A program made the position numbers. From NCBI RefSeq assembly GCF_057098645.1, contig NZ_CM169472.1: a stretch of DNA of 64,000 nucleotides; one strand, given 5' to 3'. Positions 62,201 to 64,000 of the stretch are shown in pieces. Every line of letters begins with the position of its first letter. The stretch's first letter is position 1.

Positions 62201-64000
62201 TGGTTTGAACCCGGAACCGCCCGCGCGCTTGATGCGTTTATTGAGGGGATGACGCTGCATTTTGTCACCGACCGTAAGCCGCTATCGCGCGAGGAGATTT
62301 TGAGGATGGTTGAGAGGGTTGCTGGGTAGCTACAGAGGTCGATAAGACGCAACACCTCCCTCGATAGCGCTAATCATCTCACTGGCGATCACATTTCGGC
62401 TATAACTTTTTTCGGGATAATCTCGTATTCTATTTTATTGATAAAAATGGAGTTTTCTGGGATATCATGCAAAACCAATGCATGTGCACCTATCGTGACG
62501 TTATCTCCAATATAGACTTTGCCGCCCAGAATGGAGGCGTTGCAACCAATGGTGACATTGTTGCCAATCTGTATATCCATTTCGTCAAAATGGCCACGTA
62601 GGCCGATGGTTACGCCGGGTTTGATGGAACAATTCTCACCAATTTTTACGTTATGACCGATAACAACTCCCGTTAAGTATGAAATATCCAACCCTTTGCC
62701 TATATCAACGACTAATGGGATTTTAACGTCATAACTATCAAGGATTTTTCGCTCAATTTTGCCAGCAATTTTCCGCCAGTAACCACCTTTCTCATGGCCG
62801 TATTTAGCGATACGCCACCAGAATAAGTAACGAACGCGCCGATGTTTCATCGCCCTTACAATGACTTTACGCCATGTGAATTTCCTACTTTTACCAATGA
62901 CTTCCAGATGAAGGCACTCTTTTAGCTCGTTAATATCCATATAAAAAATCTGTGTATTGCAAAGCCAGGAATATTACCGATTTTGTTCAGGTTTTTAAAT
63001 AAGCTTCTCAATAACTATTTGTTCTTTGTACGAAAAAGAATGATTTTCTGGAAGAGAGGACAGTCAGATAAGGCTTTGGACAGGGGAGAGAATGGAGATT
63101 TTGGGGATTTAGATAACAAAAAACCCACCAACCTTGAACCGAAATGGCGGGGTTGATGGGCTCCACAAAATGGGGACATCAAAGAAAAGCAGTGGCACTA
63201 ATTAAGACTGATGCCCTGCGGAAAAGTTCTGCGGTTGTGCAAAAAAATTTCATTTTCAGGGCAACTTCAGTTTTATCCTAATCCTGGCCATACCATGACG
63301 ATGATTGTCCCTGCCAGCGTCAGCAGAACGTTGGCGATTGCGTAGGTGCCCGCATAGCCCAGCGCCGGGATGTTACTGCGAGCTGTATCACTGATGATCT
63401 CCATTGCCGGCGCGCAGGTGCGTGCGCCCATCATTGCGCCGAACAACAGTGCGCGGTTCATTCGCAATACATAAGCACCGAACAAGAAACAGATAACCAC
63501 GGGCACCAGACTGACAATCAATCCGGCAATCAACATTTGACCGCCAATCGCGCCCAGGCCGTTATTAATACCGCTACCGGCGCTCAGACCAACGCCTGCC
63601 ATAAACACCATCAAGCCGAACTCTTTCACCATGCTTAATGCACCTTGCGGAATGTAACCGAAGGTCGGGTGGTTAGCACGCATAAAGCCCAGCATAATTC
63701 CGGCGAATAACAACCCGGCAGCGTTCCCCATGCCGAAACTGAATGTGCTGAACTGGAATGTGATCATCCCGATCATCAGCCCAATAACAAAGAAGGCGCA
63801 GAATGCCAGCAAGTCAGTGACCTGGCTGTGAATCGAGATAAAGCCAATGCGATCGGCGATGGTTTTTACGCGACGGGCATCGCCGCTGACTTGTAAAACG
63901 TCACCTTTGTTAAGCACGACGTTGTCATCTATCGGCATCTCAATCTGGCTACGAATGACGCGGTTAAGGAAGCAACCGTGGTCGGTCAACTTCAGTTGTG

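What the first reader, a model, noticed from the sequence alone, without database searches (positions are those of the whole stretch)
62330..63117. Orphan hexapeptide-repeat acetyltransferase cassette inserted between rcdA and rybB
As I recall K-12, rcdA is followed within about 20 bp by rybB and then ybjL. Here about 790 bp of AT-rich DNA intervenes, carrying a 183-aa left-handed beta-helix acetyltransferase. It resembles the serine O-acetyltransferase or polysaccharide O-acetyltransferase type usually found in O-antigen, capsule or colanic-acid clusters. A stand-alone copy next to a sigmaE-dependent envelope-stress sRNA is unusual. It may modify a surface polysaccharide or a small molecule, or be a remnant of a larger cluster.
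Basis: partly seen in the sequence, partly recalled or inferred. Interest (0 to 1): 0.55.

Follow-up and report, generated by a model that had tools for sequence, protein, structure and literature searches.

The report
Orphan phage-type acetyltransferase gene beside rybB
A 778-bp AT-rich single-gene island between rcdA and rybB, found in about 1% of E. coli genomes, carries a gene of a phage accessory-protein family stranded beside a prophage integration hot spot; it is almost certainly not the "serine acetyltransferase" it is annotated as, and its function is untested.

Summary
Window 62330-63107 (778 bp, about 40% GC) replaces 9 bp of the K-12 rcdA-rybB spacer. It contains one intact ORF (62389-62940, minus strand, 183 aa) with hexapeptide repeats and a confident CysE-like predicted fold.

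The island occurs in 70 of 5426 complete E. coli genomes, always at this site and at least 99.7% identical. Carriers include the O145:H28 STEC lineage.

The interpretation needs revising. The protein matches phage family PHROG 2154 over its full length. Its nearest relatives (75-79% aa) are cargo genes of P2-like and P1-like temperate phages, lying convergent with the tail-fibre assembly gene (25 of 28 viral loci). The island ends 7 bp from the 14-bp core where P2/186-like prophages integrate, a site occupied in 1104 of 5426 genomes.

It fails every serine-acetyltransferase test. Its subclade has replaced the Asp-His catalytic dyad with Lys/Thr/Val plus Tyr, yet remains under strong purifying selection.

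Best reading: an orphaned phage accessory gene, perhaps an envelope or receptor modifier like prophage NeuO. The donor and the function are unknown. rybB and its promoter are unchanged. Interest is modest.

The parts
62330..63107 (.). 778-bp AT-rich single-gene island that replaces 9 bp (TAGATAAGT) of the K-12 rcdA-rybB spacer
   Evidence: Alignment to K-12. GC 0.36-0.44. Present in 70 of 5426 genomes at >=99.7% identity, always at this site.
62389..62940 (-). 183-aa CysE-fold hexapeptide (left-handed beta-helix) acyltransferase-like protein of phage family PHROG 2154. RefSeq WP_000353913.1, annotated 'serine acetyltransferase'.
   Evidence: The CysE Asp143/His158 equivalents are Lys73/Tyr88. 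The Arg192/His193 equivalents are Met121/Asp122.
62941..63107 (-). 167-bp AT-rich upstream non-coding region. It holds a weak candidate sigma70 promoter: TTTAAA at 62999-62994, a 17-nt spacer, TAATAT at 62976-62971. No clear Shine-Dalgarno sequence.
   Evidence: Read from the sequence. It is below the promoter scanner's threshold, which found 0 sites. No homologue in any fetched locus, in IMG/VR, or in metagenomes apart from the same chromosomal locus.
62330..62388 (.). 59-bp spacer between the convergent stop codons of rcdA and the acetyltransferase gene. No canonical terminator and no remnant of a tail-fibre assembly gene.
63115..63193 (-). rybB sRNA gene, intact. It is co-oriented with the acetyltransferase gene and lies immediately upstream of it.
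   Evidence: Rfam 104 bits, full length. Identical to K-12 except 63128 T>C. Terminator -22.7 vs -23.3 kcal/mol.
63115..63128 (.). Core (AACAAAAAACCCA[C/T]) of the attachment site used by P2/186-like prophages. It corresponds to the last 14 nt of rybB and starts 7 bp from the end of the island.
   Evidence: attL and attR of lysogens compared. 1104 of 5426 genomes carry the rcdA-attL-phage junction.
61793..62329 (+). rcdA, intact and convergent with the inserted gene
   Evidence: Annotation of the identical record. Five SNPs vs K-12 in the last 500 bp.
63094..63108 (+). Right-hand copy of a 15-nt imperfect direct repeat, GGAGATTTTG[A/G]GGAT. The left copy is at 62293-62307 inside the rcdA 3' end. 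The right copy ends at the island's right junction.
   Evidence: Only 5 of 300 shuffles reach the score, so significance is borderline and the meaning is unknown.

Best explanation
The island is an orphaned accessory ('moron') gene of temperate-phage origin, lodged 7 bp from the rybB-3' attachment site of P2/186-like prophages.

Its product is a cytoplasmic, CysE-fold left-handed beta-helix protein of phage family PHROG 2154. In phages this family is carried convergent to the tail-fibre assembly and tail-fibre genes, or next to attP/int. Those are the usual positions of lysogenic-conversion and superinfection-exclusion cargo.

Most likely working model (inferred, not shown): it is expressed from its own weak promoter in the lysogen or host. 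Using an acyl-CoA donor, it modifies an envelope glycan precursor or another non-serine acceptor and so changes phage susceptibility or surface antigenicity. The precedent is the prophage-borne beta-helix O-acetyltransferase NeuO, which acetylates K1 capsule.

It is not a serine O-acetyltransferase. Its subclade has swapped the canonical Asp-His catalytic dyad for Lys/Thr/Val plus Tyr, so its chemistry may be non-canonical.

Shown: identity, family, distribution, site, phage contexts of relatives, loss of CysE residues, purifying selection.

Inferred: route of arrival, expression, substrate, phenotype.
For: Family and contexts.
- PHROG 2154 full-length match, E 5e-69.
- The closest relatives (75-79% aa) sit in a P1-like phage-plasmid contig and in P2-like prophages and phages, overlapping the 3' end of a convergent Tfa gene. 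25 of 28 IMG/VR loci show this arrangement.
- More distant members show the same arrangement in phiNP, Hafnia phage yong2 and Escherichia sp. prophages.
- Another allele is cargo next to int/attP at the end of an ESSI2_ev015-type P2-like prophage.

The site.
- The rybB 3' end is a prophage attachment site occupied in 1104 of 5426 genomes.
- In strain 100181 the island and a 186-like prophage lie side by side: AcT-attL-int.
- The island is rare and AT-rich, and the other genomes have a clean empty site or a prophage there.

The gene is maintained.
- All four carrier records whose annotation I opened encode the identical protein WP_000353913.1.
- dN/dS is about 0.04-0.08 against subclade relatives, with synonymous sites saturated.

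Precedent. NeuO is a prophage-encoded beta-helix O-acetyltransferase that acetylates the K1 capsule (PMC3046976). Its O-acetylation of the capsule increases resistance to phage (PMC13001214).
Against: - No integrase, att duplication, tail-fibre or Tfa remnant lies inside or beside the island.
- Its non-coding flanks match nothing in phages, IMG/VR or metagenomes other than this same chromosomal locus.
- No phage carries an allele closer than about 79% aa, so the donor is unknown and the event is not recent.
- The insert is not at the phage crossover point. It lies 7 bp to its left, and bacterial-type sequence (TTTAGAT) is retained between them.
- The rybB terminator SNP next to the island is a common polymorphism, found in 633 records, so it is not a footprint of integration.
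- There is no experimental or expression evidence. Papers that mention phage homologues call the function unknown (PMC9603915, PMC6456863).
- Loss of the catalytic His could mean the protein is not an acyltransferase at all.
- There is no PADLOC defence-system match.
Confidence: 0.55

Rival explanations
1. Relic of a surface-polysaccharide (O-antigen, capsule or colanic-acid) gene cluster. The product would be a polysaccharide O-acetyltransferase like WcaB, WbbJ or NeuD that once worked with neighbouring glycosyltransferases.
For: Weak HMM similarity to EpsC, WcaB, NeuD and WbbJ. In Rosenbergiella a 44%-identical homologue lies divergent to an AT3-type (SucT/OafA-like) membrane acyltransferase. 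In Intestinirhabdus alba a homologue is paired with an unknown 368-aa polytopic membrane protein.
Against: All of those models score 3- to 8-fold below their curated cut-offs. None of about 45 examined contexts of relatives is a glycan cluster; close relatives are phage cargo. No fragment of any other gene is present in the island.
Confidence: 0.08
2. An ancestral chromosomal gene of the ybjL-rybB-ybjJ neighbourhood in Enterobacteriaceae, lost by most E. coli, rather than a phage-derived insertion.
For: Intestinirhabdus alba has a homologue at the same place and in the same orientation: ybjL-rybB-368aa ORF-AcT-ybjJ. Diversity in the island (0-2 SNPs in 788 bp) is similar to that of the flanks. 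The exact protein occurs on at least 1000 contigs.
Against: The I. alba protein is only 47% identical and belongs to the other (His-bearing) subclade. The flanking YbjL and YbjJ proteins are 93% and 86% identical. This points to independent acquisitions at a hot spot. The GC content also differs: 0.41 here vs 0.53 in I. alba. 98.7% of E. coli genomes lack the island, and the sampled insert-free genomes (apart from prophage carriers) span a uniform 432-433 bp with no intermediate forms. The same family also sits as an orphan at unrelated loci: copA-cueR in Citrobacter and mug in Pseudocitrobacter.
Confidence: 0.12
3. A conflict-system protein that does not act by modifying a receptor. It could be an anti-phage or anti-defence effector, or a catalytically dead beta-helix 'pseudoenzyme' that acts by binding a partner.
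For: Loss of both members of the Asp-His dyad throughout the subclade, with strong purifying selection retained. The positions of the family in P2-like phages and next to att sites overlap the variable regions where phage defence cargo accumulates (PMC9122126). Toxin-antitoxin (HicAB) and retron genes lie nearby in some phages.
Against: No PADLOC model matches. It is a single gene with no partner conserved across contexts. The acetyl-CoA-binding beta-helix core is conserved.
Confidence: 0.15
4. A genuine serine O-acetyltransferase (a CysE paralogue), as RefSeq names it, boosting O-acetylserine and cysteine synthesis.
For: The best-scoring solved structures and folds are all CysE: phmmer E 9e-13, Foldseek TM about 0.7.
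Against: TIGR01172 scores 71.5 vs a cut-off of 210.65, and PRK11132 scores 44.6 vs 397. There is no SATase_N Pfam hit. The catalytic Asp143/His158 equivalents are Lys73/Tyr88. The serine-binding Arg192/His193 equivalents are Met121/Asp122, and they are absent from the whole phage family. The C-terminus ends in Met, not the Ile that binds CysK (sequence; CysE residue roles are from my own knowledge of Pye et al. 2004 and Olsen et al. 2004).
Confidence: 0.03
5. A silent, functionless relic that merely hitch-hikes at a recombination hot spot.
For: No consensus promoter and no Shine-Dalgarno sequence. AT-rich DNA is likely to be silenced by H-NS (inference). In one P2-like prophage the homologue is frameshifted.
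Against: The ORF is intact and the protein identical in every carrier inspected. Both SNPs seen are non-coding. Purifying selection has been strong across the subclade.
Confidence: 0.07

Closest known systems
PHROG 2154 (phage protein family, function unknown). Examples are the 'serine acetyltransferase' genes of Escherichia phage vB_EcoM-613R2, Citrobacter phage phiNP (sat), Hafnia phage yong2 and the ESSI2_ev P2-like phages; a more distant homologue (about 39% aa, PHROG membership not checked) is sacF of the P1-like phage-plasmid JL22.
   Same: Full-length profile match at E 5e-69, the same length of about 180 aa, and the same helical N-terminal domain plus beta-helix.
   Different: The window copy is not in a phage. 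It has lost the tail-fibre assembly neighbour seen with nearly all close relatives. It is at most 79% identical to any other allele.
[quoted passage not shown]
   Same: A prophage-borne, single-gene, cytoplasmic left-handed beta-helix acyltransferase that is not part of the glycan cluster it serves. It alters a phage receptor or surface antigen (PMC3046976, PMC13001214). This is a resemblance in how it may work.
   Different: No significant sequence match: NeuO is absent from PDB hits at E<=1e-3. There are no phase-variable tandem repeats. NeuO keeps the catalytic His (PMC3046976), whereas this protein has Tyr. The substrate here is unknown.
CysE serine O-acetyltransferase
   Same: Closest solved fold (TM about 0.7, 21-30% identity). 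It shares the helix-then-beta-helix layout and the G-x-G-L...G-V-V-I-G motif region.
   Different: The N-terminal domain is about half the length. The catalytic dyad, the serine-binding Arg-His pair and the CysK-binding C-terminal Ile are all absent. HMM scores are far below cut-off.
Orphan copies of the same family next to integration or variable sites in other Enterobacteriaceae: Intestinirhabdus alba at rybB, Citrobacter at copA-cueR, Pseudocitrobacter and an unnamed metagenome contig at mug
   Same: Single-gene chromosomal islands. One is at the identical rybB locus. One sits beside a P4-type integrase island.
   Different: They are 47-77% identical, and most keep the Asp/Glu-His dyad. I. 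alba has an extra 368-aa membrane ORF and lacks rcdA.

Membership tests
Hexapeptide-repeat / left-handed beta-helix acyltransferase superfamily (Pfam PF00132) | Tandem hexapeptide repeats forming a left-handed beta-helix | tested here: met
   Two Hexapep hits at E 8e-7. The AlphaFold model has pLDDT 92.7 with a beta-helix over residues 71-165. All top Foldseek hits are beta-helix acyltransferases.
Hexapeptide-repeat / left-handed beta-helix acyltransferase superfamily (Pfam PF00132) | Catalytic histidine acting as general base | tested here: not met
   The CysE His158 position is Tyr88 in the window protein and in all 9 subclade members. All 36 other aligned family members have His. PMC3046976 states that all crystallised members then known share a catalytic His.
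Hexapeptide-repeat / left-handed beta-helix acyltransferase superfamily (Pfam PF00132) | Homotrimer with acyl-CoA bound at subunit interfaces; acyl-transfer activity | not testable with these tools
   Needs biochemistry or a multimer model with ligand.
Serine O-acetyltransferase CysE (TIGR01172, PRK11132) | Score at or above the curated whole-protein cut-off | tested here: not met
   71.5 vs 210.65 bits and 44.6 vs 397 bits.
Serine O-acetyltransferase CysE (TIGR01172, PRK11132) | SATase_N helical domain (PF06426) | tested here: not met
   No PF06426 hit. Only four short helices are predicted.
Serine O-acetyltransferase CysE (TIGR01172, PRK11132) | Asp143-His158 dyad and Arg192/His193 serine-binding residues (E. 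coli numbering; roles from my own knowledge of the CysE literature) | tested here: not met
   The equivalents are Lys73, Tyr88, Met121 and Asp122.
Serine O-acetyltransferase CysE (TIGR01172, PRK11132) | C-terminal Ile tail that docks into CysK | tested here: not met
   The C-terminus reads ...KKVIAEM.
PHROG 2154 (phage accessory beta-helix protein) | Full-length match to the family profile | tested here: met
   E 5e-69, residues 2-177 on profile positions 5-181 of 185.
PHROG 2154 (phage accessory beta-helix protein) | Location in a phage or prophage, typically convergent with tail-fibre assembly or next to int/att | tested here: not met
   The window copy has no phage gene within the island or its flanks. 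Relatives do. This makes it a member by sequence but an orphan by context.
Colanic-acid / O-antigen acetyltransferases (WcaB TIGR04016, WbbJ PRK09677, NeuD TIGR03570) | Score at or above the curated cut-off, and location in a glycan gene cluster | tested here: not met
   55 vs 194.65, 39.2 vs 243 and 48.8 vs 160.8 bits. No glycan genes are nearby.
NeuO/OatWY-type phage or capsule O-acetyltransferases | Sequence relatedness and phase-variable 5' heptanucleotide repeats | tested here: not met
   Not among PDB hits at E<=1e-3. No tandem repeats.
Known anti-phage defence systems (PADLOC-DB 2.0) | Match to any defence-protein model | tested here: not met
   0 families at E<=0.01.
Prophage remnant at an attachment site | Adjacency to a used att core | tested here: met
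   The island ends 7 bp from the AACAAAAAACCCA[C/T] core used by 186-like prophages.
Prophage remnant at an attachment site | Residual integrase or structural gene fragments, or a duplicated att core at the far end | tested here: not met
   None found.

The most novel reading that the evidence does not exclude
The window protein and its subclade (at least 55% identity) would represent a His-less left-handed beta-helix protein. It would be either an acyltransferase using Tyr88 in a new catalytic arrangement or a binding-only pseudoenzyme. Temperate phages would carry it next to their tail-fibre genes to change host susceptibility to competing phages. In O145:H28 and other lineages a domesticated copy would sit directly downstream of rybB, so terminator read-through could tie its expression to sigmaE envelope stress.
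Probability: 0.12. Interest if true: 0.6.

Novelty: new member of a known kind. Interest (0 to 1): 0.3.

Why it matters
Taken alone this is a small accessory gene. Three points give it some value.

1. The RefSeq name 'serine acetyltransferase' is very probably wrong. The name has spread to many phage and E. coli records and has prompted speculation about cysteine metabolism in phage papers (PMC9603915).

2. The gene belongs to a widespread phage cargo family that is tightly linked to tail-fibre genes and has no known function. An orphan chromosomal copy in the O145:H28 STEC lineage offers a simple genetic handle for finding that function. Candidate roles are receptor or antigen modification and phage exclusion.

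3. The coordinated loss of the Asp-His dyad under strong purifying selection is an unusual state for this enzyme superfamily.

The finding also documents the rcdA-rybB spacer as a busy integration hot spot. This matters when rybB-adjacent variation is interpreted.

Tried and rejected
- **Integration footprint in rybB.** I asked whether the T>C change at 63128 in the rybB terminator marks a past phage integration. Rejected: the C variant is in 633 of 5415 records, far more than the 70 carriers.
- **Tail-fibre assembly remnant.** I looked for a Tfa remnant downstream of the gene using low-stringency tblastn and three-frame translation. None found.
- **Donor of the non-coding flanks.** I searched 50,697 phage records, all loci fetched up to that point, IMG/VR by exact 30-mer and JGI metagenomes by exact 30-mer. 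The only hit is the same chromosomal locus.
- **Second rcdA 3' end.** I tested whether the island's right end is a diverged rcdA 3' end. Only a 15-nt repeat (14 of 15 identical) aligns. 5 of 300 shuffles do as well, so it is suggestive at most.
- **Partner proteins.** The I. alba 368-aa ORF has no Pfam or NCBIfam match.
- **Species-wide scan.** It gave limited context information.
- **Literature.** Searches for this insertion, for rybB as an att site and for the function of the phage homologues found nothing specific.
- **Promoter scan.** No site reached threshold. The promoter I list is a weak match found by eye.
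Full report
**1. What is in the sequence**

- rcdA ends at 62329. RybB is a full-length Rfam match (104 bits) at 63115-63193 on the minus strand.
- In K-12 the rcdA stop and the rybB 3' end are 16 bp apart.
- In the window, 778 bp (62330-63107) replace the 9 bp TAGATAAGT.
- The segment has 36-44% GC, against 50-57% on either side.
- It holds one substantial ORF, 62389-62940 on the minus strand (183 aa). This ORF is co-oriented with rybB and convergent with rcdA.
- No tandem repeats and no convincing terminal repeats are present.
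- A 15-nt imperfect direct repeat, GGAGATTTTG[A/G]GGAT, lies at 62293 inside rcdA and at 63094 at the right junction. It is only borderline significant: 5 of 300 shuffles reach its score.

**2. Distribution**

- The 788-bp query is found in 70 of 5426 complete E. coli genomes. Every copy is at least 99.7% identical and every copy is at this locus.
- Carriers include the O145:H28 STEC lineage, O157:H16 Santai, and assorted human, pig, poultry and environmental isolates.
- The four carrier records I opened encode the same protein, WP_000353913.1. The two SNPs seen are non-coding.
- The exact protein is on at least 1000 contigs in the large protein collection.
- Apart from prophage carriers, the sampled insert-free genomes show a uniform K-12-like empty site of 432-433 bp.
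- 1104 of 5426 genomes (20%) carry a P2/186-like prophage here. Its attL reads ...TTTAGATAACAAAAAACCCAT|phage and its attR reads phage|AACAAAAAACCCATCAACC....
- The crossover core is therefore the last 14 nt of rybB (63115-63128). The island ends 7 bp to its left.
- In strain 100181 both elements are present, in the order rcdA-AcT-attL-int.

**3. What the protein is**

- Pfam finds two hexapeptide-repeat hits.
- The AlphaFold model, built on a 45-sequence alignment, is confident (pLDDT 92.7). It shows four N-terminal helices followed by a left-handed beta-helix.
- The best matches among solved structures, by sequence and by fold, are all CysE serine acetyltransferases (E 9e-13; TM about 0.7; 21-30% identity).
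- Every curated NCBIfam model falls far below its cut-off: EpsC 81.5 vs 150, CysE 71.5 vs 210.65, WcaB 55 vs 194.65, NeuD, WbbJ, LacA, Maa and Vat lower still.
- The one full-length family match is PHROG 2154, a phage family of unknown function (E 5e-69).
- No PADLOC defence model matches.

**4. Residue-level test of the 'serine acetyltransferase' label**

- In the alignment to CysE structures and across 45 family members, the CysE catalytic pair Asp143/His158 corresponds to Lys73/Tyr88 here.
- The serine-binding pair Arg192/His193 corresponds to Met121/Asp122.
- Arg-His is missing from the whole phage family. It is kept only in distant, genuine CysE-like sequences.
- The acid-His dyad is kept (Asp/Glu plus His) in 35 of the 36 aligned sequences that are 54% identical or less to the window protein; the remaining one has Ser plus His.
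- Both positions are replaced (Lys/Thr/Val plus Tyr) in all nine sequences of the window's subclade, at 55% identity or more.
- This subclade is not decaying. Against its relatives pN is 0.13-0.18 while synonymous sites are saturated, giving dN/dS of roughly 0.04-0.08.
- The C-terminus ends in Met, not the Ile that CysE uses to bind CysK. (The roles of these CysE residues come from my own knowledge of the CysE structural literature.)
- Conclusion: the protein has a CysE-like fold but is not a serine acetyltransferase, and its catalytic arrangement is non-canonical.

**5. Where relatives live**

- In E. coli genomes there is a clean gap in similarity. Seventy copies are at least 99% identical and sit at rcdA-rybB. 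The other 242 records are 60-80% identical and lie elsewhere, with 58 places on plasmids.
- Close relatives (75-79% aa) examined individually:
  - a P1-like phage-plasmid contig with DarA and LydB;
  - P2-like prophages, with the gene at the point where two tail modules converge;
  - phage vB_EcoM-613R2;
  - an IncFII-rep phage-plasmid-like contig.
- In each of these the gene's 3' end overlaps or abuts a convergent tail-fibre assembly gene, which is followed by the tail fibre. In IMG/VR this holds for 25 of 28 loci; the other three are truncated matches.
- More distant members repeat the pattern in Citrobacter phage phiNP, Hafnia phage yong2, Escherichia sp. prophages and a prophage at the bio/ybhB site.
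- Another allele is end-cargo next to int/attP of ESSI2_ev015-type P2-like prophages beside mntR.
- The family also occurs as single-gene chromosomal orphans:
  - copA-AcT-cueR in Citrobacter;
  - mug-AcT-DUF1889 in Pseudocitrobacter, once with a P4-type integrase island alongside;
  - next to mug in an unnamed contig, with a 77%-identical Tyr-type allele.
- Intestinirhabdus alba has an orphan at the same locus as here: ybjL-rybB-(368-aa membrane ORF)-AcT-ybjJ, with rcdA absent.
- That copy is 47% identical, is of the His type and has 53% GC. The flanking YbjL and YbjJ are 93% and 86% identical. Independent acquisition at a hot spot is therefore more likely than orthology.

**6. Origin**

The evidence favours a phage-derived accessory gene stranded beside an attachment site. 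The route is not resolved.

- There is no integrase, Tfa or tail-fibre fragment and no second att core.
- Homology to any relative stops at the coding sequence.
- The flanks match nothing in phage records, IMG/VR or metagenomes except this same locus.
- The neighbouring rybB terminator SNP is a common polymorphism.
- The AcT-attL-int geometry in strain 100181 shows how such a gene could pass between chromosome and phage by aberrant excision. This is inference.

**7. Effect on neighbours**

- rybB and the 80 bp upstream of it are identical to K-12 except for 63128 T>C. That change turns a U-A pair in the terminator stem into U-G (-22.7 vs -23.3 kcal/mol).
- The insertion is downstream of the rybB terminator, so the sigmaE promoter context is unchanged.
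- What does change is the 3' context of rcdA. It now converges on the new gene across 59 bp with no canonical terminator between them.
- The new gene's upstream 167 bp contains only a weak promoter-like match, TTTAAA-17-TAATAT, and no clear ribosome-binding site.
- Expression is unknown. Read-through from rybB is possible in principle but would have to pass a strong terminator.

**8. Likely mechanism and rivals**

- Convergent placement against receptor-binding tail-fibre genes, or at prophage ends, is typical of lysogen-expressed conversion and exclusion cargo.
- The closest functional precedent is NeuO. It is a prophage-encoded beta-helix O-acetyltransferase that acetylates K1 capsule and raises phage resistance (PMC3046976, PMC13001214).
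- My best working model is therefore an acyl-CoA-dependent modifier of an envelope glycan precursor or another non-serine acceptor. This is inferred only.
- The His-to-Tyr change leaves room for different chemistry or a non-catalytic role.
- Papers that mention phage homologues treat the function as unknown (PMC6456863, PMC9603915).
- The rivals are less well supported, for the reasons given in their entries: a glycan-cluster relic, an ancestral locus gene, a defence effector or pseudoenzyme, a true SAT, and a dead relic.

**9. Verdict**

- The feature is real, rare and correctly described.
- The interpretation should shift from 'orphan O-antigen/capsule-type acetyltransferase linked to an envelope-stress sRNA' to 'orphan phage-family beta-helix gene at a prophage attachment hot spot, mis-annotated as serine acetyltransferase'.
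- Interest is modest. The most unusual aspect is the conserved His-less active site in a tail-fibre-linked phage cargo family of unknown function.

Noticed in passing
window 63115-63128 (last 14 nt of rybB); L003, L004, L015, L140: The 3' end of rybB is the attachment core (AACAAAAAACCCA[C/T]) of P2/186-like prophages. 1104 of 5426 complete E. coli genomes carry the rcdA-attL-phage junction. These prophages carry variable cargo: a 111-aa ORF between int and attL, a St85-type retron, and a KAP NTPase.
   Followed up: yes
window 63128: A T>C polymorphism in the 3' arm of the rybB terminator stem turns a U-A pair into U-G. It is found in 633 of 5415 records, so it is not specific to island carriers. 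The predicted stability change is only 0.6 kcal/mol.
   Followed up: yes
protein residues 73 and 88 (window about 62724-62722 and 62679-62677, minus strand): Both members of the CysE-type acid-His dyad are replaced together (Lys/Thr/Val plus Tyr) in all nine members of the window's subclade. Of the 36 other aligned family members, all keep the His and 35 keep the Asp/Glu. The subclade is under strong purifying selection.
   Followed up: partly
L020 3502-5660 (Intestinirhabdus alba): The same locus in another genus reads ybjL-rybB-368-aa polytopic membrane ORF (no family match)-acetyltransferase homologue (47% id)-ybjJ. rcdA is missing, but the TGTGTACA..TGTACAC palindrome of the ybjJ/rcdA control region is retained.
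   Followed up: partly
L140 (NZ_JBRERE010000002.1, 'plasmid pE100181_149'): A 149.8-kb circular record labelled as a plasmid carries the chromosomal genes ybjH-ybjI-ybjJ-rcdA, the island and a 186-like prophage. It is either a mis-assigned chromosomal contig or a large captured segment.
   Followed up: no
window 62293-62307 and 63094-63108: A 15-nt direct repeat (14 of 15 identical) links the rcdA 3' end to the right junction of the island. Read in the rcdA frame, the right copy would end ...EILGI*. Significance is borderline and the origin unexplained.
   Followed up: partly
window 62330-62388: rcdA and the inserted gene converge with only 59 bp between their stop codons and no canonical terminator. 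The only terminator-like site on the plus strand (62413-62425) lies inside the new gene's 3' end. The insertion may therefore change rcdA 3' end formation or create antisense overlap.
   Followed up: no
L107 6001-6545 (E. coli strain 1190 P2-like prophage): The homologue in this prophage is annotated as frameshifted. It sits where two tail-gene modules converge (gpU on one strand, Tfa and tail fibre on the other).
   Followed up: no
L022 3977-6540 (Rosenbergiella epipactidis): A 44%-identical homologue lies divergent to a 645-aa AT3-type (SucT/OafA-like) membrane acyltransferase. This is the only context seen that hints directly at glycan acylation.
   Followed up: no
L105, L106, L109: Both a His-type (49% id) and a Tyr-type (77% id) allele of the family occur as orphans next to a mug-like uracil-DNA glycosylase gene in different genomes. 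In one case a P4-type integrase island is inserted next to it. This suggests another recurrent insertion hot spot.
   Followed up: no
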